53,629 bases of DNA from a virus. Lineage: Duplodnaviria > Caudoviricetes. A program made the position numbers and the translations under genes. The stretch lies in the IMG/VR virus record IMGVR_UViG_3300033741_000039, positions 1 to 53,629 of that record, one strand, 5' to 3'. Below are positions 4,759 through 25,703 of this stretch, piece after piece. The notes beneath the pieces were generated by a model, which saw only the letters and a list, made by a program, of their open reading frames with translations, did no database searches and was not told where the DNA came from. Each line of letters starts with the position of its first letter. The first letter of the stretch is position 1.

Positions 4759-5253
4759 ATGCTGACCAAGTACCAACCGAACTTTGCCTCGCTGACACCA
4801 GACGAGGCGGCTCACGCTGCTGCGTCACTCTGCCGTGCAACTGACCTTGTCATCGACACAGAGTCTGGCATCAGCGGGAACCAGCTGTTCAGTATCTGCG
4901 GTGCGGAGAATATCGGACAGGCACAGGTCGTGATGTCCATGGCCCGCGACCCCAGCCACATTGGCGTCGTCTGCCTCGAGAAGCTGGTGGGCACAACGCT
5001 GCGTCGCCCCGAGCCAGAGAAGAAGGCCCGAGCGCCCCGCGCCGCGCCCAAGGGTAACGCGGTCCGTCGCTCTGACCCTCGGGTCATCGCTCACGTCGAG
5101 CCGAACCCCAAGAAGTCGGGCAGCAAGTCCCACGCCCGGTACGAGCACTATCAGGTCGGCATGACTGTCGACCAGTTCGTGGCTGCGGGTGGGAGCATGG
5201 ACGACGTGCGCCACGACGTGGGTAAGGGTTTCGTCCGGCTGGAGGAGAAGTGA
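4759..5253 (+). CDS. Early protein with C-terminal NPK..G(T/S)K domain (paralog 2)
   Basis: AAGGAG RBS; NPKKSGSKSHARYEHYQVGMTV. Confidence 0.85.
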   Translation: MLTKYQPNFASLTPDEAAHAAASLCRATDLVIDTESGISGNQLFSICGAENIGQAQVVMSMARDPSHIGVVCLEKLVGTTLRRPEPEKKARAPRAAPKGNAVRRSDPRVIAHVEPNPKKSGSKSHARYEHYQVGMTVDQFVAAGGSMDDVRHDVGKGFVRLEEK

Positions 5254-7928: not shown

Positions 7929-8146
7929 GGCTTCTTCTCCTCCATCCCGAAGAACCTCGGGTCCACTGTGTGGTCGGGGTCACTGACCTGATAGCTGTGC
8001 CCGTGGCAGCACACACCTGCCCCATTGGACATAGCGATACTGCTGGACATCATATGTGTTACAAGCCATCCGTCGGGTATCTCAACCACTCTTGTCGCAG
8101 TCTTTATCCCGGAGCATCCACCCATTCTTGTGACTGTCTGTGTCAT
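7925..8146 (-). CDS. Hypothetical protein
   Basis: ATGA overlaps. Confidence 0.55.
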   Translation of the reverse strand: MTQTVTRMGGCSGIKTATRVVEIPDGWLVTHMMSSSIAMSNGAGVCCHGHSYQVSDPDHTVDPRFFGMEEKKP

Positions 8147-8382
8147 AGCTTCTTCTCCTCTGCCATCTTCTCTGTTATGTCAATGCGCAGGCGGTCGCCC
8201 GGCCCGAAGTTCGGTTTCGACTTCCCGAGGATGGACTCACGTGGTATCCAGGCTGAGCTGCCCGAGGCAACCTCCACCTGCACCGCGCGCACCGTCGTGT
8301 GCAGGATCAGGACGTCGATCTGCACCGTGGGCCTGCTGTCGTCCTGCGGCTCGTCGTCCTCGTAGTCACCGAATATGTCCAT
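8143..8382 (-). CDS. Hypothetical small beta-barrel protein
   Basis: GGAGG RBS; WIPRES..ITEKMAEEKKL. Confidence 0.7.
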   Translation of the reverse strand: MDIFGDYEDDEPQDDSRPTVQIDVLILHTTVRAVQVEVASGSSAWIPRESILGKSKPNFGPGDRLRIDITEKMAEEKKL

Positions 8383-8383
8383 G

Positions 8384-8632
8384 CTACCTCCCTCTGCCCC
8401 GGCGGGCCTCGTCCTTGACCCGCAGCACGTGCGGGTTGGTGAAGTTGTGCGTCAGCCCGAGCGCCTTGGATATGTCCACGGTGCTCGCGTAGTGCGGATG
8501 ACCGATGGCGAGCCGGATGAAGGCCACCACTCGGTCAGGTATCTTGGTCGGCCCCGCGCCCACCTCGCGCCATATCTCCTCGACCACCTCAGGTGGCAGG
8601 GCTGGCGGAATGTTGACAGCGTTGGTCATCAC
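8384..8632 (-). CDS. Hypothetical protein (possible HTH)
   Basis: STVDISKALGLTH helix-turn-helix-like segment. Confidence 0.55.
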   Translation of the reverse strand: MMTNAVNIPPALPPEVVEEIWREVGAGPTKIPDRVVAFIRLAIGHPHYASTVDISKALGLTHNFTNPHVLRVKDEARRGRGR

Positions 8633-8919
8633 CTGCCCTCCTCAATGTCCCTCATCATTCCCAGGAACTGGTCCATCGGGATTGTGCGTGTCTTGCTGGT
8701 GGGGTCCAGGGCGGGCGGGCTGAAGTCCTGCGTAGTCAGGTCACGAACCTGCCACTTCATCTTCAGCTCGAGCAGCGCCGCAGCCCGCGCCCGCGCCAGC
8801 ATGGCCGGGATCAGGCTGGTCAGTGTGTACTCCGCCCGCCCTATCACCTCGCCTGACTCGTCGTCGATCCATGAGACCGTTCGCTTGGCGGGGAACTCTG
8901 TCATCTGTTGTTCGGTCAT
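8629..8919 (-). CDS. Hypothetical protein
   Basis: RBS and coupling. Confidence 0.6.
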   Translation of the reverse strand: MTEQQMTEFPAKRTVSWIDDESGEVIGRAEYTLTSLIPAMLARARAAALLELKMKWQVRDLTTQDFSPPALDPTSKTRTIPMDQFLGMMRDIEEGR

Positions 8920-8970
8920 CTCTCGTCTCCCTTGATGTGGGGCCAGCCGGAGCTGACCCCTCTGCGCGGC

Positions 8971-10915: not shown

Positions 10916-11128
10916 CTATCTCTTGCCATATTCTACCCTCGGATCGACCGTGGCGCTAGGTCGGAACTCGCCACAGCAGGGAGTGTGGTGCTGCACCTGT
11001 GGGTAGTTGGTGAAGTAGTCGTAGCGCCAGTTCTGGTTGTCGATCAGTACAGGGGTGGTGACTGGTGGCAGTCGCCTGCACTCCCCGTCAGCCATGTACT
11101 CGCAGTTCCCACAGTGGTCGCGTCTCAT
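10916..11128 (-). CDS. Small Cys-rich protein
   Basis: CGNCEY..GECRRLPP..YPQV..CCGEF; ATGA overlap with the polymerase stop. Confidence 0.65.
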   Translation of the reverse strand: MRRDHCGNCEYMADGECRRLPPVTTPVLIDNQNWRYDYFTNYPQVQHHTPCCGEFRPSATVDPRVEYGKR

Positions 11129-13128
11129 GCCGCTCTCCTCATCTCGTCCCATGCCTCATCCCAGGACGCGCCGTAGCCATCGTCCTTACTTGCTGCGGCC
11201 CTGCCCCAGTTGGTGCCGAACTCAGCGTCCACCATCACTGGAACCTCCAGCTGCACCGTGTCGCGCATTATGGCCTGCGCCCGCTCCGCGTCGGCCCGGT
11301 CGTCGAACTCAAAGTCAAGCTCGTCGTGCATCTGCAGCAGGGGCAGCAGGCCCTCACGCCAGCACTCCCGCATGCACATCTTGGTCTGCCGTGCCGCACT
11401 GCCCTGGATCAGGGAGTTCATGGACTTGTGAGTGCCCGAGCGCCGCAGCCTCTTGCCGTACCACGGATGCTCCGGGTCCCTGATGCGCCGCTGCGCCTCG
11501 TCCATGTCACAGGCAGCAACGAACTCTCCGTCCTGCCAGCTAGGCTCCCACCGCTCGTACCTCGACCGCGCCCCGTCGAGCAGCTTGATGTACCCCTTGA
11601 AGTTGGCTCGGTTCTTGGTGAACTCAGATAGGCCCTTCACGAAGGGAAGCTTCTCGTCGTACTGTGACATGACCGACAGCGCCTCCTCCAGGACCATCCC
11701 TGTCATCAGAGCGAACTTTGGGCCACCCGCGCCGAACGCCTTGGCAAAGTTCACGTCCTTGGCCCTCCTACGCGGCAGCTGGGTCAGCTCCGCTGCCAGG
11801 TCGTGGAAGTCGGTCTTGGGGTTCTCGCGGTACATGCGCACCGCCTCCTCAACACCCGCGATCTTGCACAGGTACGCGAAGTGGACGATGAGCCGGAACT
11901 CCTGCTGGGAGTAGTCGAGCGCGCCCCATATCTTGCCCTCCGATGGAAGGAACAGGCCCCGGATCAGCTTCTTGATCATGTCGTTACGTGAGGGCATCTG
12001 CTGCAGGGGCGGGTCCGAGTAGGCCATGCGCGTCGTTCGGGTTCCACCGCTGTCGCTCTTGGTCTGGTGTATCTCGGAGTGTATCCGTCCCATGTGCATG
12101 AAGCCCATGATGTAGTTGCCTACGAACTTCTCCCCCGCATCGTGCATCTTCCGAGCGCCCACCAGCATCTCAGGTAGCCAGTGGTCGAGCTTCTCAATCT
12201 CCTCCGTCTTGAAGGACGGGTTGTTCTTGGATGTGCGGGGAACGGGGAGGTTCTCCGCCTTGAATATCCCCTCAAGGAACTTGGGTGAGTTAACGTCCCC
12301 TATCTCGATGGGCCTGCCTATCTGCAGCTTGTCGCTGAGCATGGACAGGTGCATGTTGCGCTGCTGGAGCAGGCGGCTGCGCACCTGCGGCGCGCGGTCC
12401 TCGTCGATGCGGACGCCCCGGCGGCGCATGGCTATGATCATAGGGACGAGGTCGGTCTCCAGGATGTACGCCTCGGTGCAGCCCTGTGCCTCCAGCATCG
12501 GGTGCAGCTTCCGCCAGAGGGCCAGCGTGGCCACCGCGTCCTGTGTCGCGTAGGGTCCGACGTACTTGCCGGGCATCCGCCACATCTCGGACTTGGGGTC
12601 GCATCCAAGAGCCTCTGCAGCCTCTCTCAGAAGGCGCTCGTCCTTACCCTGTACCCCGCGCCTCCTGCAGACGTCGTCCAGATTGTAGGTCAGCTGGTTC
12701 TCGTCCAGAATGAACTCCAGGATCATGGTGTCCTCGAGTCTCTCCGGGCAGACCACGTCTCTCTGGTGTGTCAGCCACCCGAGGTCGTACACAGAGCGGT
12801 GGTAGATGCACCGCTTGGTCCGGTGCAGCCTGTCGATCCACGCCAGCACAGCGCCCTCGTCCATGCACTCGGTGTCTGGGTGTCGCACGGGAATGTAGCC
12901 GGACAGACCGCTGTCGGTCGCGTAGGACACACCCGCTATCCATCCAGCCTTGTAAACCCATCCTGGCCCCTTCTTGTTCTTCAGACCGTCATCCTTGGTC
13001 TCGATGTCGAGGGCCACCACGTCGCAGCCGGAGAGGTCCGGGGGGCTCGTTGGAGCCACCCAGTCCGACACAGGCAGCATGAACCCCATGGGCTGCTGCC
13101 TGTGGTCCCTGTTCTTCTTAGCGGCCAT
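11125..13128 (-). CDS. polA: Family A DNA polymerase with 3'-5' exonuclease
   Basis: LDIET exo motif; motif A LDYSQQEFR; motif B RRRAKDVNFAKAFG; NSLIQGSAA; motif C QMHDEL. Confidence 0.95.
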   Translation of the reverse strand: MAAKKNRDHRQQPMGFMLPVSDWVAPTSPPDLSGCDVVALDIETKDDGLKNKKGPGWVYKAGWIAGVSYATDSGLSGYIPVRHPDTECMDEGAVLAWIDRLHRTKRCIYHRSVYDLGWLTHQRDVVCPERLEDTMILEFILDENQLTYNLDDVCRRRGVQGKDERLLREAAEALGCDPKSEMWRMPGKYVGPYATQDAVATLALWRKLHPMLEAQGCTEAYILETDLVPMIIAMRRRGVRIDEDRAPQVRSRLLQQRNMHLSMLSDKLQIGRPIEIGDVNSPKFLEGIFKAENLPVPRTSKNNPSFKTEEIEKLDHWLPEMLVGARKMHDAGEKFVGNYIMGFMHMGRIHSEIHQTKSDSGGTRTTRMAYSDPPLQQMPSRNDMIKKLIRGLFLPSEGKIWGALDYSQQEFRLIVHFAYLCKIAGVEEAVRMYRENPKTDFHDLAAELTQLPRRRAKDVNFAKAFGAGGPKFALMTGMVLEEALSVMSQYDEKLPFVKGLSEFTKNRANFKGYIKLLDGARSRYERWEPSWQDGEFVAACDMDEAQRRIRDPEHPWYGKRLRRSGTHKSMNSLIQGSAARQTKMCMRECWREGLLPLLQMHDELDFEFDDRADAERAQAIMRDTVQLEVPVMVDAEFGTNWGRAAASKDDGYGASWDEAWDEMRRAA

Positions 13129-13732
13129 ATTCTTCAGTGTACCCGTCGAGCATGCAGCGCCACCCGTCCTCCTCCATCTGCTCCTTGTAGATGCGGCTCC
13201 AGTGGAGGCCCTTCATACTCCCAGATGGGATGATGACGTTCCGGACTGCCTCGAACTCCGCGTGGGTCGCGCGCCGGGGCGCGGTCGCGCTGAGAGGCTG
13301 GACAATCTTGACGTTCTGCAGGTTGGGTTGGCTTGGTGGGCGCACAGTTGAGGTCAGACTGCCATTCAGGTCGAGCGTGATAGTGATCCCCTCGCGATGC
13401 TGTCGGATGATCTCGCTCTCGACCAGCAGCAGGTAGCGCCGAAGGTCTCGGATGTCGTCGATGATACCTTCCTCGCGGCCATCGACGATCGCTGCAGTCA
13501 CTATGTCCCACGGCGCGACCCGGTGGGCCTCGGTGGAGCCGTTCGCTCGTGTGGGGTCGTCTGTATGTGGTGCGAGCGCTGTCTCCAGTCGGTCCCACTT
13601 GCGGGCCAGCATCATGAACGCTCCGACGCCACCCCGGCGCAGCCAGGAGGCCCCGTACTCAATGTCCTTGCGGGTGACCTCCTTCACGTCGGTGTCAGCC
13701 ACAGTCTTGATGTGCTCTCTGTATCCGGTCAT
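13118..13732 (-). CDS. Nucleotide-modification-associated domain 1 (Nmad1/DUF1599, MazG-like alpha-helical) protein
   Basis: RKDIEYGASW..GGVG..ARKWDRL..EGIIDDIRDLRRY. Confidence 0.7.
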   Translation of the reverse strand: MTGYREHIKTVADTDVKEVTRKDIEYGASWLRRGGVGAFMMLARKWDRLETALAPHTDDPTRANGSTEAHRVAPWDIVTAAIVDGREEGIIDDIRDLRRYLLLVESEIIRQHREGITITLDLNGSLTSTVRPPSQPNLQNVKIVQPLSATAPRRATHAEFEAVRNVIIPSGSMKGLHWSRIYKEQMEEDGWRCMLDGYTEEYGR

Positions 13733-14247
13733 GATCTGTACTCACTCTCCTTGCTGTTCACCCACTCGATTGCGGGAATGGTCCACAGGCCCTCAGGGGC
13801 CACGGTGAGGAGCCGTGACAGCTCCTCCCTTGTTCTCTCCTCGATCATCTCGGCGTAGCGGTTGCCCATGTCGACCTCGGTCATCCCGAACTCCCACATC
13901 TCGGCCACGTCGCAGAACTTGACCCGCCAGCGGTCGGCCTCGGGTAGCCTCGGGGACACCCTCCCCCGTATCCGCATCTCTGCCTCCGGCTCCAGCCCAG
14001 TGTAGATGGTCTTGAGGACTGGGTTGTCCCTCTTCAGGGGGAACGGGGGATCACCCAGTATGAGCTCAGTCGTGTCGTGGTGGAGCATGAACTCGGTGAC
14101 CTCCGGCGCTGGCGCGCCGAATATCTCGATGAAGATGCGCATGACCTGCCACGTGTGCTCACCGTTGGACTGAGTGTGCAGGGTGGGCCATGTGGCGTAT
14201 CGCTGCACCTGACCCGCTAGGCGGGCGCTGGTTGATGGGTCTATCAC
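13729..14247 (-). CDS. HD-domain phosphohydrolase (YfbR-like deoxynucleotidase)
   Basis: VQRY..QSNGEHT..LHHDTTELILGDPPFPLK..KFCD; GTG start overlapping the upstream stop. Confidence 0.85.
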   Translation of the reverse strand: MIDPSTSARLAGQVQRYATWPTLHTQSNGEHTWQVMRIFIEIFGAPAPEVTEFMLHHDTTELILGDPPFPLKRDNPVLKTIYTGLEPEAEMRIRGRVSPRLPEADRWRVKFCDVAEMWEFGMTEVDMGNRYAEMIEERTREELSRLLTVAPEGLWTIPAIEWVNSKESEYRS

Positions 14248-15248
14248 AGCCTGCGCTCCATCCACTCGACACAGGCCATGCGCCAGTCGCTCGCGGCGAT
14301 GCTGTCCCGAGCCCTCGCTACCGCCTCCTGTCGCTCGCCCGAGCGCCACAGGTTGTGGACATTCCACATGGGCTTGGCAACCTCTCCGAAGAATGTGTTC
14401 CCGTAGTCCCAGAAATGGTTGGGGTCCTGCATGAACAGACCAAGGTCGTGGTCCCACTCCGATGGCTTGTTCATGATGGGGTGGTAGGTGACGTCGCCGC
14501 TCTCGTACAGGCAGCGGTTGTTGGGAATACCTACAGCCTGCAGCGTGTCGTTGTAGGCATGCCAGTTGTTGCTGAGCTGGTACATGGTGCCCACCTCAAC
14601 GCCGATGCGGCCCGCCATGTACTCCTGCAGGAAGCTGAAGTGCACCGCGTTCGCCCCTGTCGCGCCCCAGATGATGTCGTTCGAGCGGCAGCAGATGGTG
14701 AGGTCGAGCACCATGGACGGACCCTTGCCAGGTTGGTCGCGCCCGGTGATGCGAGGGTAGATGTGAGTGTTGCAGGGTACGTCGTTGACACTCGCGTCGA
14801 GGTCACGCTCGGGGGACCACATCGCCAGGACTGCGCGTCGGTCCAGGTGGTTCTTGCGCAGCAGCCTGATGACCATCTCGAGCTGGTCAAACCAGTCCAC
14901 ATCGGTGGTGGACCACCAGTTCTTCCAGCGATCACCATAGGCTCCGTGGCAGATGCCGTTGCTCTCAGCAAACCTCTCTGAGAAGTTCCCGACGAAGCGG
15001 TCCAGCCAGCGGGCGTCGTTCATGCCGTTCAGCATCCACAGGCACTCGAAGAAGTGGAAGAACGGGTTGGCGTCCCGGCCCACGTCCAGCAGAACCCGCT
15101 CCTGAGGACGGGTGGTCACGGTCAGCACTGGGTTGTTGGCCACCAGCACTCCACCGTTGCGGCTGTCGGACGTTAGACCGACCTCCCTGATCTTCCTGAC
15201 CGACTCTCTGTAGGTCGAGTTGACGTTTCTTCCCTCGACAGTGTACAT
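14244..15248 (-). CDS. Thymidylate-synthase-family enzyme, probable dUMP hydroxymethylase
   Basis: SRNG, NPFFHFFECLWML, GAYG.RW, DRRAV, catalytic DVPCN, CRSNDIIWGATGAN (Asn at the dUMP-specificity position), NWHAY. Confidence 0.85.
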   Translation of the reverse strand: MYTVEGRNVNSTYRESVRKIREVGLTSDSRNGGVLVANNPVLTVTTRPQERVLLDVGRDANPFFHFFECLWMLNGMNDARWLDRFVGNFSERFAESNGICHGAYGDRWKNWWSTTDVDWFDQLEMVIRLLRKNHLDRRAVLAMWSPERDLDASVNDVPCNTHIYPRITGRDQPGKGPSMVLDLTICCRSNDIIWGATGANAVHFSFLQEYMAGRIGVEVGTMYQLSNNWHAYNDTLQAVGIPNNRCLYESGDVTYHPIMNKPSEWDHDLGLFMQDPNHFWDYGNTFFGEVAKPMWNVHNLWRSGERQEAVARARDSIAASDWRMACVEWMERRL

Positions 15249-16072
15249 TACGATCTCCCCTCTGCTAGCGCCCGCTTCCAGTAGGCAGTGAACTCAGTGC
15301 GCTCACCAGCCATGGCTCCGGACTTGTTTGTCTTCATGCGCTTCCGGACGAGGCCGGGGTGCAGCTGGCACAGCAGCTCCGCAGTGTCGTCCAGCTGCTT
15401 CGCGTCCCGTGTCCCCTCCAGACCACCAGGAGCGTCAGCGGACCGCTGCCCCTGCGCCCAGTGATAGGTGACAAGGTTGGGGAGGCCCTGACGCAGGAGC
15501 TGGAGGGTCATGTCGACGTCCTCACGCCCCTCAACCTCGCGACGGAACTTGATGCCAAGAGCCTTCAGCTTTGGAACACTGTACCCCACCATTCGGATGC
15601 CTCGGGTGGCCTCGACCTCCGCGCCAATGCCCGGCGTCCGGTTGTTGCCCTCACGCATGGACACGGCTGCATGGGCGTAGGTGTCCAGGGTGTCCTCGAA
15701 CCAGCTCATCAGTCCCAGCCAGTCGCTGTCGTCGCAGGGGCGCAGCTTGTAGTCCCAGCCCGGATCGTCGGCTGGAACCTTGCCCCGCACGATGAAGTGC
15801 AGGTCGTCGTCGAGCATGACGATCTTCCTCTCATCGCCCAGCCAGGCCCAGTCCAGTGTCCAGTTGCGGGTGTCGGCAATGCCGTTGACCTCGCCCTCGG
15901 GGATTTTGACGATCACGTCGTTGCTGCGACCGAGGCGGACCAGCATGTTGTTGTACGACTCAGCCTCCTCCTCGCGCACCACGAGGTGCAGCGGGAACTC
16001 CTTCGGGACGTGCTCGAAGGTCTGGGCCTCTCCGTTGGAGTGGCGTCGGTATGTTGGTACAATCACAAGCAT
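15248..16072 (-). CDS. GT-A DNA glycosyltransferase (TAGT/GREB1/JGT-like)
   Basis: IVPTYRR, LVVREEE..Y, GIADTRN, MLDDDL, EDVDMTLQLLRQG, APGG. Confidence 0.82.
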   Translation of the reverse strand: MLVIVPTYRRHSNGEAQTFEHVPKEFPLHLVVREEEAESYNNMLVRLGRSNDVIVKIPEGEVNGIADTRNWTLDWAWLGDERKIVMLDDDLHFIVRGKVPADDPGWDYKLRPCDDSDWLGLMSWFEDTLDTYAHAAVSMREGNNRTPGIGAEVEATRGIRMVGYSVPKLKALGIKFRREVEGREDVDMTLQLLRQGLPNLVTYHWAQGQRSADAPGGLEGTRDAKQLDDTAELLCQLHPGLVRKRMKTNKSGAMAGERTEFTAYWKRALAEGRS

Positions 16073-16968
16073 CTGTTGATTCCTTCCTTCAGTGATACAT
16101 ACTTCTGAGGCCCGATGAGGCTCTCAAGCTTCTCAGTCATTGGTTGGCGCCACTGCGGGTCATCCTCACGCGCCTCCACGTACTCTACGCGCCCACCCGT
16201 CCGCTGCGCTATCATGTCAGCTACCTCACTGATGGTTGCCATCTCCCGGTTGCCGATGTTCACGACGGTATTGCCGGGCAGGTCCAGCCCACGTACACTG
16301 TTGATCATCCGGACGGTGTCGTCGATGTAGCAGAAGGAGCGGGTCTGCTGTCCAGAGCCATGGACCTGCAGCGGGAGTCCCTGCGCCGCCCGGTCGGCAA
16401 ACGTGTTGATCACACGCCCGTCCAGGGGCATGTCCGGCCCGTAGGTGTTGAAGATGCGCAGGGTGCTGATGCTCATGTCGGGCCTGTCCAGGGCCATCTG
16501 GTGGGTCATCGCCTCCATCATGCGCTTGCTCTCGTCGTACACACCCCGGACCGAGCAGGTCTTCACAGACCCAGTGTTGTCCTCGCTCATGTACGACTGG
16601 GTGGTGCCGTAGACCTCACTCGACGAGGCCACCAGCAGCCTCCCCCCGCTCATGACAAGAGGGGCCACAGCCACCAGCCCGCCGACGTTGGCGCGGATGA
16701 TGCTCTCCCAGTCCCGGAACACGTCCGGAGAGGCGGGGGAGGATAGGTGCCACACCTCGTCGAACTCGGGTGCATCAGGGAAGTAGTCCCGGATGCTGGT
16801 GACGTTGGACCGGATCAGCTCAGCGCTGGTGCCGCTGAGGTTCTGCTGCCTCCCTGTGCTGAGGTCGTCGACGACCCAGAAGTCTGTCTCTGGCTCGCTG
16901 GCTGTGACCGCCCGTATGAGGGCGGAGCCTATGAAGCCTGCTCCGCCCGTTACCAGTATCTCTCGCAT
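16063..16968 (-). CDS. NAD-dependent SDR, UDP-glucuronate decarboxylase (UDP-xylose synthase)-like
   Basis: TGGAGFIG, HLSSPASP, ASSSEVYG, YDESKR, RIFNTYGP..DGRV, GSGQQTRSFCYIDD, DDPQWRQP; AGGAG RBS before ATG 16968. Confidence 0.85.
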   Translation of the reverse strand: MREILVTGGAGFIGSALIRAVTASEPETDFWVVDDLSTGRQQNLSGTSAELIRSNVTSIRDYFPDAPEFDEVWHLSSPASPDVFRDWESIIRANVGGLVAVAPLVMSGGRLLVASSSEVYGTTQSYMSEDNTGSVKTCSVRGVYDESKRMMEAMTHQMALDRPDMSISTLRIFNTYGPDMPLDGRVINTFADRAAQGLPLQVHGSGQQTRSFCYIDDTVRMINSVRGLDLPGNTVVNIGNREMATISEVADMIAQRTGGRVEYVEAREDDPQWRQPMTEKLESLIGPQKYVSLKEGINRCL

Positions 16969-16982
16969 GTGTGTCTCCTGAT

Positions 16983-17480
16983 CTATGCGGGCCAGACCAT
17001 CTCCAGGTCCGGCGTCTCTGTCCATCCCCACTGGCCATACCAGTCGGGGTCCTTCCTCAGTAGCACCGAGCGGTGTGCGCGGTGCAGCTCCTCGCTGCCA
17101 AGCCACTCGGGCATGGTGACGCTGTCGCTGTACATCTCCTCAGAGTGGTGGCCCCGAGCGAGCAGCAGCGGCATGTTGTTCTCGTAGCCCCGGCGCACCC
17201 ACTCGCGGATGCAGCAGTCACCGTACAGCATGAGCGCTGTGACGTGGTTCCGCCACATGACTGTTGCCGGATGCATGGCCCAGCCTATCTTGGTGAACGC
17301 CTCGGTCCTGGCCGATCGCCACTCCTCTGTGGACATGGCCTTGTCACAGTGCGCCGCCTCCCTGACTCCCTGGATCGCCCTCTGTATCTGGCGGGCCTCG
17401 ACCCGCTGCTTGCCGAGCCGCTGGCGGTCGAGCTGCATCACGGACACGACGAAGTTGGGGTGGGGCAGGAAGGTCTGCAT
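16983..17480 (-). CDS. Pyrimidine-dimer DNA glycosylase-like protein (MSMEG_6728/DenV-related)
   Basis: MQTFLP..LDRQRLGKQRVEA..HPATVMW..EWVRRGY..PEWLG..HRSVLLRKDP..Y. Confidence 0.85.
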   Translation of the reverse strand: MQTFLPHPNFVVSVMQLDRQRLGKQRVEARQIQRAIQGVREAAHCDKAMSTEEWRSARTEAFTKIGWAMHPATVMWRNHVTALMLYGDCCIREWVRRGYENNMPLLLARGHHSEEMYSDSVTMPEWLGSEELHRAHRSVLLRKDPDWYGQWGWTETPDLEMVWPA

Positions 17481-17967: not shown

Positions 17968-18438
17968 CTACGCTCCCAGCCCCGCCCGCACAAGCTCCTC
18001 CTCGATGAGGTAGCCCGCGACCCGGCGCATGAGCTCGTCGTTGTACAGGCGGTTCATGCCCGAGGGGTGGGGCAGGTACGCCCAGGTCACACCACGGTGC
18101 AGGGTCCACGCGGCTGGAGCCTCCTCTGGGAGCCACAGGACGTTCCGGACCGCAGCGCCTAGGACAACCACCCTTCGGCCCTGGAGCATCTCCCACAGGC
18201 CCTCCACGCGTCCTCTGGCCCGTATGGGGCACCACTCCGGCTCGTCGAGCAGGTTGTGGCGGCTCGTGAGGCGCATGTACTCCGCTCTGGAGACGCCGCA
18301 GACCTCGTTGACCATGCGCCACAGTCTCCATCCAGCCACGCCCCTCGGGTGCGGCGCGAGTGCCCAGCGTGGGTCACTGCTGTGTGGGTTGTTCATCCCC
18401 AGGAGGACAGGGCGCTGGTCAGCCACGCTCCTCTCCAT
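17968..18438 (-). CDS. Uracil-DNA-glycosylase-like fold protein (divergent)
   Basis: LLGMNN, AGWRL, RVVVLG, YLPHPSGMNRLYN. Confidence 0.7.
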   Translation of the reverse strand: MERSVADQRPVLLGMNNPHSSDPRWALAPHPRGVAGWRLWRMVNEVCGVSRAEYMRLTSRHNLLDEPEWCPIRARGRVEGLWEMLQGRRVVVLGAAVRNVLWLPEEAPAAWTLHRGVTWAYLPHPSGMNRLYNDELMRRVAGYLIEEELVRAGLGA

Positions 18439-18637
18439 CCCAGTACATGGTCATGTCGCGCGCCAGAGGGAAGACCTCCCGCGCGTTGCGACCCTGACGT
18501 GTGCTCCCGGACCATGCCCAGACCCTCTCAGCGGTGGTGCTGAGGCAGTCGTGCCCGAGATACAGGCCCGTCTCCCGGTCGAACATGACCACCCTATTGG
18601 ACAGTCGTGGTCGAGCCGTGTATGCTATGGCCGTCAT
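18419..18637 (-). CDS. Hypothetical protein
   Basis: ATGA overlap; YL..AWSG..Q.RN. Confidence 0.55.
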   Translation of the reverse strand: MTAIAYTARPRLSNRVVMFDRETGLYLGHDCLSTTAERVWAWSGSTRQGRNAREVFPLARDMTMYWDGEERG

Positions 18638-19575
18638 CGGTACACTCCTCTTGGTCGGCCCTGCCCAAGTCGGGCACGCTCGTACTTGTCGAACTCACAC
18701 AGGGTGTGCTCGATATCCCTCATCTCCACCTGATGCCCCTCGCGGTGGGGCCAGATGTGGCGGTACTCACCGTCGGCCAGCTCGAGCAGCGCCCGCATCT
18801 CACAGACGAAGACGTGCTTCGGCTGGCTCCGGTTCAGGTCGCGACCGTGCAGGCGGTTCAGCCCTCGCATCGCGCCGGGGCCGGGGTTGGCCCACGTGCG
18901 GATGTCCGGCGCTCGATCGAGCAGGGCGGTGTGGCGCAGGTCGGTGACGATCTCGTAGGACATGAAGTCCCCGAGGAACTGATGCTGGGTCATGGTCCTC
19001 CATGCGTCCTCAAGACTCCATGGGTGGCCCTGCCTCGCGCTGTTCAGCATCTCCCACCCAAGACCACGCCCGGACCCAGTACTGTGCCCACCACTGGTCT
19101 TGGTGATCCCCCAGTTGAACTGGTCCACGCACCAGAGGACACCGTCGAGCTTGTTCATGCCGTTCGGGGTCTTGATGATGTAGGAGCCAGTCACGTAGGG
19201 GCCTGCGCCGCAGTGGGTAAGTACGGCGGCGCGGATGATGTCCGTCTCACCGTGCTCGAGGTAGTCCTCCCAGGCTGTGATCCCCCGCCCGCTGCCCCGG
19301 TGGTCCGCGACCTGCGAGAAGATGGCGTCCCCGGTCGTGGTCCGGTTGAACCAGCGCCAGAGGACTGTGGCCAGCAGGACGTCGGGCGAGTTGCGGAGCC
19401 TGTCGCGTATCTGGACCCGGAAGTGCTTCGTCGTGATGTCGTCCTCGCGGTAGACGTTGCAGAACCTGTACTGGGACAGGATGGGGTCGTCCGTCCACTC
19501 GGGGCGGGGCAGGCCCTCGCGCCGACGTAGGAGGATGCTCTGGCGCTCTCTGGCGTACTCGAAGAAGGGTCTCAT
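18634..19575 (-). CDS. aGPT-Pplase1 / 5-hmdU DNA kinase helical-domain family protein
   Basis: ERQ..WTDDPILSQYRFCNVYREDD, RWFN, GSYII, GDFMSYEIVTDL, GPGAMRGL, DIEHTLCEFDKY. Confidence 0.82.
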   Translation of the reverse strand: MRPFFEYARERQSILLRRREGLPRPEWTDDPILSQYRFCNVYREDDITTKHFRVQIRDRLRNSPDVLLATVLWRWFNRTTTGDAIFSQVADHRGSGRGITAWEDYLEHGETDIIRAAVLTHCGAGPYVTGSYIIKTPNGMNKLDGVLWCVDQFNWGITKTSGGHSTGSGRGLGWEMLNSARQGHPWSLEDAWRTMTQHQFLGDFMSYEIVTDLRHTALLDRAPDIRTWANPGPGAMRGLNRLHGRDLNRSQPKHVFVCEMRALLELADGEYRHIWPHREGHQVEMRDIEHTLCEFDKYERARLGQGRPRGVYR

Positions 19576-19598: not shown

Positions 19599-19627
19599 AG
19601 TCTACCTACGGAGGGTCCAAAAGAAAA
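19599..19627 (-). promoter_or_regulatory. Putative promoter TTTTCT-N17-TAGACT for the modification operon
   Basis: Resembles the TTTTGT-N17-TATACT sites; overlaps the terminator U-tract. Confidence 0.45.
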
Positions 19628-19654
19628 GCGGGCTAGCCGTGAGGCCAACCCGCT
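19619..19654 (-). terminator. Rho-independent terminator
   Basis: AGCGGGUUGGCC/GGCUAGCCCGCU stem followed by UUUCUUUU. Confidence 0.8.
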
Positions 19655-19680
19655 CTGATCATCAGACTGGTGTTTGGGGA

Positions 19681-20370
19681 TTAACCGACCTTGATGAACT
19701 TCTTCTCGACATCGTTCTTGATGTCGGGGCTGGTGAGACCGCCCTCGAGCGCCTGATCCACAGTCATGCCGTTCTTGTAGACAGCGAATCGCTCGGCGGA
19801 CTTGGTGCCTGCGCGCTTGGGGTTGTGGTCCTTGCCGTATGGCTTGCCATCCTTGTCGGTCAGCAGGGTGATCTTGGCGTCGCGCTTGAAGCCTGCGACC
19901 AGTGCTGGTGCCTCTGGGGCCTTGTCGGCTGCGGGCGCGGTGTTTGCTGGTGTGTTGGTCATCGTTCTTCTCTCCTTGAGTGTCAGTTCTCTGTCCCGGG
20001 AAATGGTTTCACAGATGACAGCCGGGTCCGTCGGGGGTAGCTCGGTCATCGCGACCATTCTCTTCCATATCGAGGGGATGTAGTGCTGGATGACGTTCCG
20101 ACCACCAGCCTCCCGCTCCCTGATCAGCACCTCAGACCTGAAGTCCTCGTCGCCCAGGGTGCGCAGCAGATCGGGCAGCTCGAGCCGGGTCCACTGACGC
20201 ATGATATGGTCCTCGTCGACGCAGATGACGTCCCCGTACTGGATCAGGGGATGGCGGTCAGCCTCCTCGAATGAGGAGAACCTGAACCAGTCCCCTAGTC
20301 CTGCGCGGGTCACAGCGACGACCCAAGATGTGCTACCTTGATCAACCATGAGCCAAGTGTCCGCGCACAT
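19681..20370 (-). CDS. Protein with C-terminal NPK..G(T/S)K domain (paralog 3); probable internal start at 19962
   Basis: NPKRAGTKSAERFAVYKNGMTV; internal AAGGAG RBS before MTNTPA. Confidence 0.75.
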   Translation of the reverse strand: MCADTWLMVDQGSTSWVVAVTRAGLGDWFRFSSFEEADRHPLIQYGDVICVDEDHIMRQWTRLELPDLLRTLGDEDFRSEVLIREREAGGRNVIQHYIPSIWKRMVAMTELPPTDPAVICETISRDRELTLKERRTMTNTPANTAPAADKAPEAPALVAGFKRDAKITLLTDKDGKPYGKDHNPKRAGTKSAERFAVYKNGMTVDQALEGGLTSPDIKNDVEKKFIKVG

Positions 20371-24827: not shown

Positions 24828-25703
24828 TCAGATCGGGACGTCGTCGCCCTTCGCTGTGCTGTCCTTGGTGGCCTCCGCTGTCTCGGCAACGAGGGTCTCC
24901 TCCTCGACCGACTTGAGCAGGCTCAGGCCCGCCCGCAGAACTGACTCGTCAGCGAGCCAGCCAAGGTCGTCCACCACGTACTGGAACCACGACTGCTCGC
25001 CCCTCTGGCGGTAGCGTGTCCGCATGCCGTACTGGCGGAAGAAGCTTGGTGCCTTCTGGGCGCGGCCCGGAATGCGGTGCTGCTTCATCTGCGCTGTCCA
25101 GCTGCGGCTGGTGGTGTGGTTGCTGCCTCCCATGGGGACAACGATGGCCATCGCGCCGCCCTGATCGTCCAGCAGGTTGCAGTAGTGGTAGCGGGTGTCC
25201 ACGAGGCGGTTGCTGTTGGGCATGCGCCAGATGGTGCGGTCCGCGTTCTGTGGGTCGACCGTCTCCTGCGCCTCCTCAGGACGCTGCTCGAAGGGGTACT
25301 GGTTGACTGGGCTGCCCTCACCCGGCTCGCCCTCCCACTCGACCCACACGTGGTGGAAGCCTGCGGGCTGCAGCAGGATGGGAGGTAGGTTGTCGCCCAT
25401 CTTGATTACGCGGTTCAGTGAGCGGATGATGAAGTCCCCTGCCTCAGCGCCCTCGATGTACTTGGGGTGCTTCTTCTTGACCTCTGCCGAGTTGTCCTGG
25501 AGGATTGCCAGGATGGGGATCATGGAGTCCTCGGAGTTCTCCGAGTAGCCCAGACCGCCAAGCTCGTCTACCTCCGCGAGAAGGTCGGCGGGCAGGGCGA
25601 AGTCCGTCTTCACCATCTCGCCTGTTGACTGGTCCATGACCTCACCCGTCAGGATGCTACCGGGGTTCCTCGTGGCCTCAGCCACCTCTGTACTCTTGCT
25701 CAT
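24828..25703 (-). CDS. Putative single-stranded DNA-binding protein
   Basis: Next to primase; IP.L.ILQ..S.EV..YIEGAEAG; acidic C-terminal tail DDVPI. Confidence 0.6.
   Translation of the reverse strand: MSKSTEVAEATRNPGSILTGEVMDQSTGEMVKTDFALPADLLAEVDELGGLGYSENSEDSMIPILAILQDNSAEVKKKHPKYIEGAEAGDFIIRSLNRVIKMGDNLPPILLQPAGFHHVWVEWEGEPGEGSPVNQYPFEQRPEEAQETVDPQNADRTIWRMPNSNRLVDTRYHYCNLLDDQGGAMAIVVPMGGSNHTTSRSWTAQMKQHRIPGRAQKAPSFFRQYGMRTRYRQRGEQSWFQYVVDDLGWLADESVLRAGLSLLKSVEEETLVAETAEATKDSTAKGDDVPI

What the first reader, a model, noticed from the sequence alone, without database searches (positions are those of the whole stretch)
14244..16968. Predicted new DNA base: dUMP hydroxymethylase + DNA glycosyltransferase + UDP-xylose synthase-like gene (xylosyl-hmU, a pentose base-J analogue)
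Seen: three overlapping, co-oriented genes. The first is a thymidylate-synthase-family enzyme with RSNDIIWGATGAN. The second is a GT-A glycosyltransferase (DDD, EDVD, APGG). The third is an SDR carrying UDP-glucuronate decarboxylase signatures (HLxSPASP, SSEVYG, YDExK, RIFNTYGP, DDPQxRxP). Known: Asn at this TS position selects dUMP whereas Asp selects dCMP; TAGT/JGT-type enzymes glycosylate hydroxymethyl-pyrimidines in DNA, as in kinetoplastid base J; UXS converts UDP-GlcA to UDP-xylose. Inferred: the phage replaces T with hmU and makes its own pentose donor to decorate it, as protection against restriction or CRISPR nucleases. I know of no characterised xylosylated DNA base. No UDP-glucose dehydrogenase is visible, so UDP-GlcA would come from the host.
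Basis: partly seen in the sequence, partly recalled or inferred. Interest (0 to 1): 0.92.

Follow-up and report, generated by a model that had tools for sequence, protein, structure and literature searches.

The report
Phage sugar-on-hydroxymethyluracil DNA modification operon
An uncultured phage carries, in one tightly packed operon, an enzyme that should make hydroxymethyluracil for its DNA, a DNA-type sugar transferase and an enzyme that most resembles UDP-xylose synthase, so its DNA probably carries a five-carbon sugar on a thymine substitute, a mark not yet described.

Summary
Observation confirmed. On the minus strand, three translationally coupled genes encode a UXS-like SDR (16968-16063), a TAGT-family GT-A glycosyltransferase (16072-15248) and a thymidylate-synthase homologue with the catalytic Cys and the uracil-type Asn (15248-14244). 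They lie in the conserved hmU core of YuA/PaMx11/PhiJL001-like siphoviruses: HMUDK_hel-like gene, dUMP hydroxymethylase, HD, PolA. The DNA kinase and amino-acid transferase of the characterised thymidine hypermodifiers are absent here.

The SDR keeps all five UDP-GlcA-decarboxylase residues. It matches human UXS1 (5e-48) and cellular UXS-family proteins (about 171 bits) far better than ArnA, RfbB or GalE (39-49 bits). It sits on a long branch, so the exact product is not settled.

SDR-GT-TS adjacency recurs in two diverged viral contigs. Every SDR-linked GT falls in one well-supported clade that holds none of the 34 SDR-less locus GTs.

Best reading, about 0.5: post-replicative O-pentosylation (xylose) of 5-hmdU, with UDP-GlcA taken from the host. 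No chemistry has been tested.

Four literature searches found no xylosyl-hmU in print. Pentoses on cytosine and GT+epimerase pairs on 5hmC are known.

This scan had already noted UXS+TAGT pairs in other phages that lack an acceptor-making enzyme. This operon supplies one. Verdict: new variant of a known kind.

The parts
16063..16968 (-). UXS-like extended SDR (predicted UDP-glucuronate decarboxylase / UDP-xylose synthase), 301 aa
   Evidence: Pfam Epimerase 120.9 bits. Best solved relative is human UXS1, E 5e-48 and 167 bits; the next is MoeE5 at 81 bits. S116, E118, Y144, K148 and R274 are invariant in a 10-sequence phage clade. blastp gives 171-172 bits to cellular UXS-family proteins against 49 for ArnA, 42 for RfbB and 39 for GalE. 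RBS AGGAG plus ATG at 16968.
15248..16072 (-). TAGT-family GT-A glycosyltransferase, 274 aa; predicted hmU-DNA glycosyltransferase
   Evidence: Pfam TAGT 53.3 bits. phrog_842 99.7 bits. 26.5% identical to T6 ggt and 39.6% to PhiJL001 gp22. AF2 model pLDDT 94.8, GT-A fold; best PDB matches are AvpGT 9jn3, TarS and TarP. D88-D89-D90 nearly invariant in 103 homologues.
14244..15248 (-). Thymidylate-synthase-family enzyme, predicted dUMP hydroxymethylase, 334 aa
   Evidence: Pfam Thymidylat_synt 76 bits. phrog_5131 296.5 bits. Below every NCBIfam ThyA equivalog cut-off. Cys (DVPCNTH) and Asn (GAN) align to the TS PCH and FN motifs. 38-40% identical to the TS/dUMP hydroxymethyltransferase genes of PaMx11, PhiJL001, Bordetella MW2 and Pam3.
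13729..14247 (-). HD-domain YfbR-like 5'-deoxynucleotidase homologue, start GTG overlapping the TS stop (GTGA)
   Evidence: Pfam YfbR-like 29.7 bits. tblastn matches PaMx11 gp52 and PhiJL001 gp25. Start read from the sequence.
13118..13732 (-). 204-aa conserved protein between HD and PolA; weak lead to DUF1599
   Evidence: N-terminal about 60 aa conserved in L003, L004, L005 and L134. No Pfam or PHROG hit. Atlas feature score 0.80 to clusters that are 27-32% DUF1599, a lead only.
11125..13128 (-). Family A DNA polymerase, last gene of the overlapping block
   Evidence: tblastn 30-56% identical to the annotated DNA polymerases of PhiJL001 gp28 and PaMx11 gp55 and to L003/L078.
16983..17480 (-). 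Pyr_excise / MSMEG_6728-family protein directly upstream of the SDR
   Evidence: Pfam Pyr_excise 75.7 bits. NCBIfam MSMEG_6728_fam 121 bits. Conserved at this position in L003 and L078.
17968..18438 (-). 156-aa protein, probable UDG-superfamily fold
   Evidence: phrog_12275 90 bits. No Pfam hit and no PDB sequence hit. Atlas feature score 0.92 to a UDG-superfamily cluster, a lead. Conserved in L003, L078 and L134.
18634..19575 (-). HMUDK_hel / aGPT-Pplase-like helix-hairpin-helix-fold protein, first gene after the terminator-like hairpin
   Evidence: Pfam HMUDK_hel 140 bits. 42% identical to PaMx11 gp50. AF2 pLDDT 86.1; VIA-align Z 10.0 to DUF2419, 9.7 to PaMx11 gp46 PUGT and 9.5 to Mag1. C293-E294 invariant in 12 homologues.
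19625..19656 (-). Terminator-like hairpin (14-bp stem plus T run) upstream of the block
   Evidence: No minus-strand terminator-like site was found between 19575 and 11125. Total site count does not exceed the shuffles (4 against 3.9), so this is weak.

Best explanation
This is a kinase-free, sugar-type thymidine hypermodification operon.

Step 1 (inferred from homology): the TS homologue converts dUMP to 5-hydroxymethyl-dUMP. After phosphorylation this is built into phage DNA by the linked PolA in place of some or all T. The adjacent HD nucleotidase homologue probably trims competing dNMPs.

Step 2 (inferred from residues and homology): the phage SDR, a UXS-type enzyme with tightly bound NAD+, takes host UDP-glucuronate. 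It oxidises C4, decarboxylates and reduces again to give UDP-xylose. No UDP-glucose dehydrogenase is encoded, so UDP-GlcA must come from the host.

Step 3 (inferred from family and context): the single TAGT-family GT-A enzyme, using its DxD-bound metal, transfers that pentose to the 5-hydroxymethyl oxygen of hmU in double-stranded DNA after replication. The product would be 5-(xylosyloxymethyl)-2'-deoxyuridine. It would be the beta anomer if the enzyme inverts, as I recall its T6 and GT2-like relatives do.

The bulky major-groove sugar would block restriction enzymes, hmU-directed glycosylases and possibly Cas nucleases.
For: Operon structure: a run of overlapping or closely abutting genes, PyrEx-SDR-GT-TS-HD-p204-PolA. 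SDR/GT overlap by 10 nt, GT/TS by 1 nt, TS/HD as GTGA, HD/p204 by 4 nt and p204/PolA by 11 nt.

TS homologue: the Cys and Asn align to the TS nucleophile and uracil-specificity Asn. All 22 other GT- or PaMx11-linked TS rows carry the Asn. The one exception in the 24-row alignment, L092, has Asp. The core order HMUDK_hel-like / TS / HD / x / PolA is shared with PaMx11 gp50-gp55. PaMx11 DNA carries a 5-hmdU-derived base (PMC8989533, passages).

No competing tailoring route: tblastn with the PaMx11 5-HMUDK kinase, AADT, FAD enzyme and acetyltransferase, and with both phages' dCMP deaminases, finds no homologue in the window. GT plus SDR are therefore the only candidate tailoring enzymes.

SDR: human UXS1 at E 5e-48 is the top solved match of 24 at E<=1e-10, and no ArnA entry is among them. 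S116, E118, Y144, K148 and R274 are invariant in the phage clade. The tree places the clade inside a 95% SH-aLRT group with cellular UXS-family proteins and ArnA, excluding RfbB, GalE, Gmd and Fcl. blastp gives 171-172 bits to the UXS family against 49 or less to ArnA, RfbB and GalE.

Linkage: SDR-GT-TS adjacency holds in L003 and L078/L130, whose core genes are only 42-60% identical to the window's. In the GT tree, 10 SDR-linked GTs fall in one 33-row clade (99% SH-aLRT). Four of these are shown by locus, two of them identical; six are inferred from equal 'longest contig' lengths. None of the 34 SDR-less locus GTs is inside that clade. The closest SDR-less relative, L134, has PolA 50%, HMUDK_hel 50% and TS 45% identical but GT only 39%.

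Independent recurrence: 8 of 94 UXS-seeded viral loci have a TAGT-family ORF adjacent or nearby. Seven of these are outside this clade, and two of those seven are weak at 26.6 and 28.5 bits.

GT fold: GT-A with pLDDT 94.8.
Against: - No chemical or enzymatic data exist. Donor, acceptor and product are all inferred.
- The phage SDR clade is on a long stem (2.11) and is not nested in the cellular UXS cluster. Its position relative to ArnA is an unresolved trichotomy. A changed product (UDP-4-keto-pentose) or substrate (for example UDP-GlcNAcA) remains possible.
- The SDR-GT co-inheritance is essentially one evolutionary event, so the clade pattern is not independent replication.
- 23 members of the GT clade have unknown context.
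- The characterised TAGT member, T2/T6 ggt, adds sugar to a sugar rather than to a base (PMC13216743, passages).
- T4 beta-GT glucosylates hmU in duplex DNA only when it is mispaired (PMC4111573, abstract). Efficient hmU glycosylation in duplex DNA therefore needs a dedicated enzyme.
- The conserved HMUDK_hel-like protein, with an invariant Cys-Glu, has no assigned role and may change the final product.
- The host is unknown, so UDP-GlcA supply is assumed.
Confidence: 0.5

Rival explanations
1. hmU is glycosylated, but with a hexose or hexuronate taken directly from the host pool (UDP-Glc gives a base-J-like mark; UDP-GlcA gives a HexA mark). The SDR does not supply the donor. It could instead tune the host nucleotide-sugar pool or act as a 4-epimerase-like enzyme.
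For: Most relatives carry GT + TS + HMUDK_hel-like without any SDR. In one search, 16 of 37 GT loci kept had a TS hit and only 3 had an SDR. The GT family therefore works without it. Pyle et al. found Hex, HexNAc and HexA on 5hmC, with some GTs independent of their 'epimerase' (10.1101/2023.12.21.572611, passages). The second-best solved match of the SDR is MoeE5, at 81 bits. I recall, from no call, that MoeE5 is a UDP-GlcA 4-epimerase.
Against: The SDR and GT overlap by 10 nt and are co-inherited. SDR-linked GTs form a separate clade on a 0.77 stem. Fourteen positions are fixed in that clade and rare (10% or less) in 70 other TAGTs, several of them flanking the EDxD and APGG motifs. The SDR keeps the Glu and Arg that I recall as decarboxylase-specific.
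Confidence: 0.2
2. The SDR is a decarboxylase but releases a different donor, such as UDP-4-keto-pentose (ArnA-like) or UDP-XylNAc from UDP-GlcNAcA. A host epimerase could also convert its product to UDP-arabinose. The mark would then be a keto-pentose, an amino- or acetamido-pentose, or arabinose on hmU.
For: The phage SDR clade has a long stem and an unresolved position relative to ArnA. Identity to UXS is only 36-40%. Arabinose-type marks exist on phage cytosines (PMC13390438, passages; PMC6024577, search listing and abstract only).
Against: The SDR is far closer to UXS than to ArnA (171 against 49 bits). The Pfam/PHROG scans of the replication-module ORFs found no aminotransferase, epimerase or second SDR, and the family search of the whole record found one Epimerase-family gene. 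The structural genes were not scanned.
Confidence: 0.12
3. The GT and SDR do not act on DNA. They glycosylate a protein, a nucleotide or nucleoside, or a host envelope component, and sit among replication genes by accident.
For: The best structural match of the GT is a GT crystallised in complex with the nucleoside Ara-A (AvpGT). Next come wall-teichoic-acid GTs. Earlier notes of this scan describe UXS+TAGT pairs in phages with no acceptor-making enzyme (unchecked AI notes).
Against: The GT lies beside an Asn-type TS homologue in 16 of 37 GT loci kept, and beside the HMUDK_hel-like gene in most of them. In the window it is translationally coupled to the TS homologue. Pfam assigns it to the DNA-modifying TAGT family.
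Confidence: 0.08
4. The TS homologue is an ordinary thymidylate synthase, so there is no hmU and no acceptor.
For: Its Pfam family is Thymidylat_synt, and the Cys and Asn are those of a true TS.
Against: It fails every NCBIfam ThyA equivalog cut-off (72 against 174.55; 55 against 327). It belongs to the phage family that includes PaMx11 gp51 and the genes annotated TS/dUMP hydroxymethyltransferase in Bordetella and Pseudomonas phages. It keeps the hmU-core synteny.
Confidence: 0.05

Closest known systems
Thymidine hypermodification clusters of Pseudomonas phages PaMx11 and M6 (5-hmdU -> 5-PmdU -> amino-acid adducts; Lee et al. 2018, 2021)
   Same: Same phage lineage and same core order: HMUDK_hel-like gene, dUMP hydroxymethylase, HD, small protein, PolA. 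The TS is 38% and the HMUDK_hel-like protein 42% identical. hmU is made at nucleotide level and tailored on DNA.
   Different: tblastn finds no 5-HMUDK P-loop kinase, clade-2 aGPT-Pplase (AADT), PLP, rSAM, FAD or acetyltransferase partner. A GT and an SDR occupy the variable slot instead.
T-even glucosyl-hmC system, including the T2/T6 TAGT (beta-glucosyl-HMC-alpha-glucosyltransferase)
   Same: A TS-family hydroxymethylase acts at nucleotide level, followed by post-replicative glycosylation. The GT is in the same Pfam family as T6 ggt, at 26.5% identity.
   Different: The base is uracil-type (Asn), not cytosine-type. There is a single GT, so it must act on the base, whereas T6 TAGT extends a sugar (PMC13216743, passages). 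The phage encodes its own donor-making SDR.
Phage 5mYOX 'subclass II' clusters: GT-A plus sugar 'epimerase' on 5hmC (Pyle et al., bioRxiv 2023 / Cell Rep 2024)
   Same: A DNA GT is paired with an adjacent SDR-type nucleotide-sugar enzyme on which GT activity depends. The paper also notes GT-A genes near ThyS homologues and epimerases in IMG/VR.
   Different: There the acceptor is 5hmC made by MT + TET after replication, and the products are Hex, HexNAc and HexA. 'Pentose' and 'xylose' occur 0 times in the main text.
Base J of kinetoplastids (JBP1/2 + JGT)
   Same: The predicted product class is the same: an O-glycoside on the hydroxymethyl group of hmU in DNA.
   Different: In kinetoplastids hmU is made by dioxygenases on DNA, the sugar is glucose, and the organism is a eukaryote (PMC13229309, passages). 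Relatedness of this GT to JGT was not tested here.
Pentose marks on phage cytosines: arabinosyl-dC derivatives (RB69, phage NP) and the deoxypentose of Shewanella phage Thanatos
   Same: A five-carbon sugar on a pyrimidine of phage DNA. Thanatos TH1_063 makes UDP-xylose in vitro (PMC12838424, passages).
   Different: The base is different (C). The donor route is different: a pyrophosphorylase rather than a UXS-type decarboxylase. The enzymes are unrelated.
UDP-xylose synthase (human UXS1, bacterial 'UDP-glucuronic acid decarboxylase family')
   Same: 36% identical over 299 residues to hUXS1. The aligned S/T-x-E, YxxxK, RIFNT(Y/F)GP and DDPxxRxP motifs are present. 39-40% identical to cellular family members.
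   Different: It forms a separate long-branch clade of ten phage-type sequences and lies outside the cellular cluster. Its activity is untested.

Membership tests
Thymidylate synthase superfamily, dUMP hydroxymethylase branch | Pfam Thymidylat_synt domain above the gathering score | tested here: met
   76 bits against 24.3.
Thymidylate synthase superfamily, dUMP hydroxymethylase branch | Catalytic Cys nucleophile, and Asn (uracil) rather than Asp (cytosine) at the base-specificity position. The roles of these residues are recalled from the TS and T4 gp42 literature. | tested here: met
   PCN aligns to PCH and GAN aligns to FN of solved TSs. Asn is present in 23 of 24 aligned rows; the exception, L092, has Asp.
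Thymidylate synthase superfamily, dUMP hydroxymethylase branch | Produces 5-hmdUMP rather than dTMP | not testable with these tools
   Indirect only. It fails all ThyA equivalog cut-offs, matches phrog_5131 at 296 bits, and shares synteny with PaMx11 gp51.
TAGT (PF20691) DNA glycosyltransferases | Profile match above the gathering score | tested here: met
   53.3 bits against 27.5. Six-frame search of the record gives 53.7 bits.
TAGT (PF20691) DNA glycosylltransferases | GT-A fold with a DxD metal/donor motif | tested here: met
   AF2 pLDDT 94.8. Foldseek finds GT-A enzymes at E 9e-8 to 1e-5 with TM about 0.5. D88, D89 and D90 are at least 90% conserved in 103 rows.
TAGT (PF20691) DNA glycosyltransferases | Acceptor is a hydroxymethyl-pyrimidine, or its sugar, in DNA | not testable with these tools
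   Context only: it is coupled to the TS homologue and lies inside the replication operon.
UDP-xylose synthase / UDP-glucuronate decarboxylase (extended SDR) | Rossmann GxxGxxG motif and the S/T-Y-K catalytic triad | tested here: met
   GGAGFIGS is present. S116, Y144 and K148 are invariant in the phage clade and align to hUXS1.
UDP-xylose synthase / UDP-glucuronate decarboxylase (extended SDR) | Decarboxylase-specific Glu after the catalytic S/T, and the C-terminal Arg (hUXS1 E120 and R277; roles recalled from the literature) | tested here: met
   E118 (SSSEVYG) and R274 (DDPQWRQP) align to hUXS1 TSEVYG and DDPQKRKP. Both are invariant in the clade. E. coli ArnA shows the same TSEVYG motif.
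UDP-xylose synthase / UDP-glucuronate decarboxylase (extended SDR) | Groups with UXS rather than with ArnA, GalE or RmlB in a tree | tested here: inconclusive
   It lies inside a 95% SH-aLRT group of UXS family plus ArnA that excludes RfbB, GalE, Gmd and Fcl. The phage clade, the cellular UXS cluster and ArnA form an unresolved trichotomy, and the phage stem is 2.11 long. Pairwise scores favour UXS, 171 against 49 bits.
UDP-xylose synthase / UDP-glucuronate decarboxylase (extended SDR) | Converts UDP-GlcA to UDP-xylose | not testable with these tools
5-HMUDK / AADT thymidine hypermodification pathway (M6, PaMx11, ViI type) | P-loop 5-hmdU DNA kinase and clade-2 aGPT-Pplase (amino-acid:DNA transferase) | tested here: not met
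   tblastn with PaMx11 gp49 and gp46 finds nothing in the window at E<=0.01. Only the gp50-type HMUDK_hel-like protein is present.
5mYOX (TET/JBP)-dependent post-replicative sugar pathways | Tet_JBP dioxygenase and C5 methyltransferase in the record | tested here: inconclusive
   There is no C5-MT match, and that control rang in 9 of 14 genomes. There is no Tet_JBP match, but that control rang nowhere. The record is estimated 83% complete.

The most novel reading that the evidence does not exclude
The phage DNA carries 5-(beta-D-xylosyloxymethyl)uracil. This would be a pentose analogue of base J and the first five-carbon sugar found on a thymine-derived base. It would be made by a complete three-gene route: dUMP hydroxymethylase, UXS-type donor synthase and TAGT transferase.

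More broadly, this operon would be one branch of an uncharacterised, kinase-free 'sugar-type' thymidine hypermodification family. In that family the same GT / HMUDK_hel-like / hydroxymethylase core is combined with interchangeable sugar-tailoring partners: none, a radical-SAM/SPASM enzyme, or a UXS-like SDR.

It would also supply an acceptor for the recurrent phage UXS+TAGT pairs whose target is so far unexplained.
Probability: 0.42. Interest if true: 0.8.

Novelty: new variant of a known kind. Interest (0 to 1): 0.66.

Why it matters
- A confirmed xylosyl-hmU would add a new natural DNA base. It would extend DNA glycosylation from hexoses on cytosine to a pentose on a thymine substitute.
- It would show that phages bring their own nucleotide-sugar decarboxylase to diversify DNA armour beyond the donors their host offers.
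- The three genes are small and adjacent. They can be tested on hmdU-DNA without the phage, which is uncultured.
- The GT would be a candidate tool for selective tagging of 5hmU.
- The comparison set gives a natural experiment on how TAGT donor specificity evolves. It includes SDR-linked and SDR-less GTs, and 14 clade-specific positions near the EDxD and APGG motifs.
- It offers a worked acceptor-plus-donor example for the UXS+TAGT modules that this scan keeps finding without an acceptor.

Tried and rejected
- megablast of the three-gene stretch against 50,697 phage records gave no match. By tblastn no GenBank phage has a GT above 40% or an SDR above 36% identity. I found no cultured representative.
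I therefore could not read the contigs of the other GT-clade and SDR-clade proteins. I fell back on the search for related loci with alignments and on equal 'longest contig' lengths. The latter is suggestive only.
- The scan of genome contigs with the GT-clade alignment found no relative. There are no prophage copies, so no host clue.
- PDB sequence searches with the GT, the 156-aa protein and the HMUDK_hel-like profile each gave 0 hits.
- hhalign of the HMUDK_hel-like alignment against PaMx11 gp46 gave probability 0.4%, not significant. The fold-level resemblance (Z 9.7) is within the range that helical proteins reach by chance.
- Complex prediction of GT with the HMUDK_hel-like protein gave no verdict: score 0.00, controls not run. 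It says nothing either way.
- The promoter/terminator scan did not exceed its shuffles.
- The literature search 'phage' + 'dUMP hydroxymethylase' + 'glycosyltransferase' returned 0 papers.
- Iyer et al. 2013 (PMC3763556) is not held. What I say of it is recalled or taken from citing passages in PMC5889632 and PMC8989533.
The Pyle et al. contig lists may bear on whether this contig was already catalogued.
- I considered the idea that the glycoside serves as a leaving group for an AADT-like reaction by the HMUDK_hel-like protein. I set it aside for lack of evidence.
- I did not use the look-up of sequencing runs or read laying. Short reads cannot show this modification, and the origin of the sample is not to be traced.

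Rows dropped or selected before counts:
- One search left out L101, L102, L105, L106, L132 and L133 as duplicates of other loci, and GT ORFs under 200 aa.
- One search used P0122-P0169 only (48 of the 102 non-self GT hits), dropping those under 230 aa and one duplicate.
- One search used 22 hand-picked rows from the 109 listed hits P0012-P0120 (named ones plus every tenth or so). It also included P0011 under a 'phage clade' label, although it grouped with the cellular proteins. E. coli ArnA was cut to residues 306-660.

Full report
WHAT IS THERE. The window is a single IMG/VR virus record of 53,629 bp with an estimated completeness of 83% and about 62% G+C. The finding's three genes are real and lie on the minus strand.
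- The SDR ORF runs 16063-17106. Its sensible start is the ATG at 16968 (MREILVTGGAGFIGS), which has AGGAG 7 nt upstream and lies 14 nt after the stop of the preceding gene.
- The glycosyltransferase runs 16072-15248. Its ATG lies 10 nt inside the end of the SDR gene, behind GAAGGAAGG.
- The thymidylate-synthase homologue runs 15248-14244 and shares one base with the GT gene.

The overlaps continue downstream. The TS stop overlaps a GTG start (GTGA) of an HD-domain gene. That gene overlaps a 204-aa gene by 4 nt, and the 204-aa gene overlaps the family A polymerase gene by 11 nt. A terminator-like hairpin sits just upstream of the HMUDK_hel-like gene, and none was found inside the 8.4-kb block. 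The scan as a whole did not beat its shuffles.

THE TS HOMOLOGUE. It passes Pfam Thymidylat_synt (76 bits) but fails every NCBIfam ThyA equivalog cut-off. It fits the phage family phrog_5131 at 296 bits. In alignments to solved thymidylate synthases, its PCN aligns with the PCH nucleophile motif and its GAN with the FN motif that holds the uracil-specific Asn (the roles of these residues are recalled). Its nearest GenBank relatives, at 38-40% identity, are annotated 'thymidylate synthase/deoxyuridylate hydroxymethyltransferase'. They come from Bordetella, Pseudomonas (YuA-, Ab18- and PaMx11-like), PhiJL001 and cyanophage Pam3. PaMx11 and M6 DNAs carry bases made by post-replicative tailoring of 5-hmdU (PMC8989533 and PMC5889632, passages read). 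In my alignment of 24 TS rows from the window and fetched loci, 23 have Asn. The single exception, L092, has Asp.

THE GLYCOSYLTRANSFERASE. It passes Pfam TAGT (53.3 bits) and matches phrog_842, the family named after T6 beta-glucosyl-HMC-alpha-glucosyltransferase. It is 26.5% identical to T6 ggt and 39.6% to PhiJL001 gp22. An AlphaFold2 model built on 103 homologues is confident (pLDDT 94.8) and has a GT-A fold. The best solved matches are AvpGT (crystallised in complex with the nucleoside Ara-A), TarS, TarP and hyaluronan synthase, at TM about 0.5. The DDD motif is at least 90% conserved across the family. It is the only TAGT in the record.

THE SDR. It passes Pfam Epimerase (120.9 bits). 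Among solved structures, human UXS1 stands far above the rest (E 5e-48, 167 bits). The next is MoeE5 at 81 bits, then GalE-type and RmlB-type entries. No ArnA entry reaches 1e-10. The alignment shows ASSSEVYG/ASTSEVYG, YDESKR/YDEGKR, RIFNTYGP/RIFNTFGP and DDPQWRQP/DDPQKRKP. This means the catalytic S/T, Tyr and Lys are present, along with the Glu and Arg that I recall as essential for decarboxylation in UXS and ArnA.

The large protein database gives nine close unnamed relatives (41-50% identity, E 1e-83 to 1e-57). After these come thousands of cellular proteins at about 40% identity, several of them named 'UDP-glucuronic acid decarboxylase family protein' by NCBI. In the 10-sequence phage-type alignment, S116, E118, Y144, K148 and R274 are invariant.

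A quick maximum-likelihood tree (47 rows, SH-aLRT only) puts the phage-type clade (12 rows, 99%) inside a 95% group. That group also holds the cellular UXS-family rows and the E. coli ArnA decarboxylase domain, and it excludes E. coli RfbB, GalE, Gmd and Fcl. The three lineages inside the group are not resolved, and the phage stem is long at 2.11. Pairwise blastp favours UXS: 171-172 bits (39-40%) against 49 for ArnA, 42 for RfbB and 39 for GalE. So this is a UXS-type decarboxylase by residues and similarity, but a diverged one.

THE NEIGHBOURHOOD.
- Upstream lies an HMUDK_hel-family protein (140 bits). It is 42% identical to PaMx11 gp50.
- The PaMx11 order is gp49 kinase, gp50, gp51 TS, gp52 HD, gp53, gp54, gp55 PolA. 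This shows that gp50-type / TS / HD / PolA is a shared core, and that the tailoring enzymes (gp46-gp49 in PaMx11) are a variable cassette.
- tblastn with PaMx11 gp46 (AADT), gp47, gp48, gp49 (kinase) and both phages' dCMP deaminases finds nothing in the window.
- Here the slot between the gp50-type gene and the TS gene holds small ORFs, a 156-aa protein, a Pyr_excise/MSMEG_6728-family gene, the SDR and the GT. The 156-aa protein matches phrog_12275 and has an Atlas lead of 0.92 to the UDG superfamily.
- The window has no UDP-glucose dehydrogenase domain. The two related virus records that could be searched have none either (0 of 2, one of them 90% complete).
- There is no C5 methyltransferase. 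The Tet_JBP search was silent, but so was its control.

RELATIVES.
- Two other viral contigs, L003 and L078, keep the full order. L130 from a metagenome carries a GT identical to L078's. The order is primase, UvrD, p229, HMUDK_hel-like, UDG-like, PyrEx, SDR, GT, TS, (HD/p204), PolA. Identities to the window are 42-60% for core genes, 43-46% for the SDR and 54-65% for the GT.
- Of the 37 GT-bearing loci I kept, 16 have an Asn-type TS homologue nearby and 3 have the SDR. Most of those with a TS also have the HMUDK_hel-like gene next to the GT.
- In the GT tree (83 rows, quick method) the 10 SDR-linked GTs fall in one 33-row clade (99% SH-aLRT, stem 0.77). Four of these are known from loci, two of them identical; six are inferred from equal contig lengths. 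None of the 34 SDR-less locus GTs falls inside. The other 23 rows of that clade have unknown context.
- GT identities drop sharply from at least 52% inside the clade to 42% or less outside it.
- The nearest SDR-less phage, L134, has PolA 50%, HMUDK_hel-like 50% and TS 45% identical, but GT only 39%.
- Fourteen GT positions are fixed in the clade and rare elsewhere. Several flank the EDxD and APGG motifs.
- This pattern fits a change of donor that accompanied gain of the SDR. It is one evolutionary event, not repeated evidence.
- Independently of this clade, 7 further loci among the 94 seeded with UXS-like genes have a TAGT-family ORF adjacent or nearby. Two of these hits are weak. Their UXS genes nest inside the cellular UXS cluster.
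- Other GT-hmU loci carry a radical-SAM/SPASM gene next to the GT (L131, L005). The GT core is therefore combined with different sugar-tailoring partners.

LITERATURE.
- Searches for UDP-xylose, xylosyl, base J, 5-hmdU and glycosyltransferase in phage contexts found no paper describing a glycosylated hmU in a phage or a xylosylated DNA base.
- What is known: arabinosylated cytosines (PMC6024577, search listing and abstract only; PMC13390438, passages read); a deoxypentose on cytosine in phage Thanatos, together with a phage UDP-xylose pyrophosphorylase (PMC12838424); GT-A plus 'epimerase' pairs that put Hex, HexNAc or HexA on 5hmC, with a bulk note that GT-A genes lie near ThyS homologues and epimerases in IMG/VR (10.1101/2023.12.21.572611); and 288 of 753 phage genomes with solitary TAGTs of unknown role (PMC13216743).
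- Passages were read for these papers except where stated otherwise; none was read in full. Supplements were closed.

EARLIER NOTES OF THIS SCAN (unchecked AI notes). Several phages were reported with UXS+TAGT pairs but no enzyme to make an acceptor base. Two were reported with hmdU + TAGT + radical SAM. My see both patterns in fetched loci, though I cannot tell whether these are the same genomes. The present operon differs in having donor synthase, transferase and acceptor synthase side by side.

MECHANISM AND VERDICT. The best-supported reading has three steps.
1. dUMP is converted to hmdUMP and incorporated into DNA.
2. Host UDP-GlcA is converted to UDP-xylose by the phage SDR.
3. The GT transfers the pentose to hmU in DNA.

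I put the full chain at about 0.5. The looser statement, 'hmU in this phage's DNA is glycosylated with a sugar that depends on the SDR', I put at about 0.65. The main rivals are a hexose or hexuronate mark with the SDR playing another role (0.2), a different pentose-type donor (0.12), a non-DNA target (0.08) and an ordinary TS (0.05).

The role of the HMUDK_hel-like protein is open. It has an HhH glycosylase-like fold and an invariant Cys-Glu pair. The complex prediction with the GT gave no verdict.

The system is a new variant of known kinds: TS-family hydroxymethylase plus DNA glycosyltransferase, and GT plus nucleotide-sugar SDR. It is not a new category. The predicted base would be new chemistry, and it can be tested with three small recombinant proteins.

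Noticed in passing
L092 (IMGVR_UViG_3300043411_002742): 8001-8942, 12314-13216, 13384-13902: A viral contig carries two UXS/SDR-like genes next to a TS homologue that has Asp, not Asn, at the base-specificity position (SYD against GAN). It is a candidate hydroxymethyl-cytosine route with its own sugar-nucleotide enzymes. My profile found no TAGT hit there.
   Followed up: partly
L131 7943-8914; L005 8794-9777: Radical SAM + SPASM genes lie directly beside the TAGT-family GT in two GT/TS/HMUDK_hel-like loci that lack the SDR. This suggests a second, different sugar-tailoring branch of the same hmU-GT core.
   Followed up: partly
window 18634-19575 (-): The HMUDK_hel-like protein has an invariant Cys293-Glu294 (LCEFDKY) across 12 homologues. 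Its HhH glycosylase-like model aligns to the PaMx11 gp46 5-PmdU glycinyltransferase at Z 9.7. It is present although the phage has no DNA kinase, so its role is unexplained.
   Followed up: partly
window 17968-18438 (-): The 156-aa protein (phrog_12275) has no Pfam or PDB sequence hit. The protein atlas places it next to UDG-superfamily clusters (score 0.92, 25 of 30 hits). It is conserved in L003, L078 and L134.
   Followed up: partly
window 19681-20370 (-), C-terminal about 45 aa; also 2564-2695 and 5080-5247 (+): The C-terminal module of the 229-aa protein recurs in the window; PhiJL001 gp18 hits two further copies. It also appears just upstream of the GT in other phages: L108 8768-8908, L110 8508-8708 and L004 6652-6735. 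Function unknown.
   Followed up: no
window 13118-13732 (-): The 204-aa protein between HD and PolA has a conserved N-terminal about 60 aa in four related loci. There is only a weak atlas lead (0.80) to DUF1599-containing clusters.
   Followed up: partly
window 24828-26359 (-): Two genes match Pfam families named after cyanophage Pam3 (Pam3_Gp34 at 125.9 bits; DUF7307/Pam3 gp33-like at 51.7 bits). This ties the phage's replication module to a wide siphovirus group that spans Pseudomonas, Bordetella, alphaproteobacterial and cyanobacterial hosts.
   Followed up: no
window 15248-16072 (-), residues 13, 33, 104, 124, 148, 162, 177, 179, 182, 186, 202, 204, 212, 218: Fourteen GT positions are at least 90% fixed in the 33-row SDR-linked clade and at most 10% shared by 70 other TAGTs. 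They are candidate donor-specificity determinants.
   Followed up: partly
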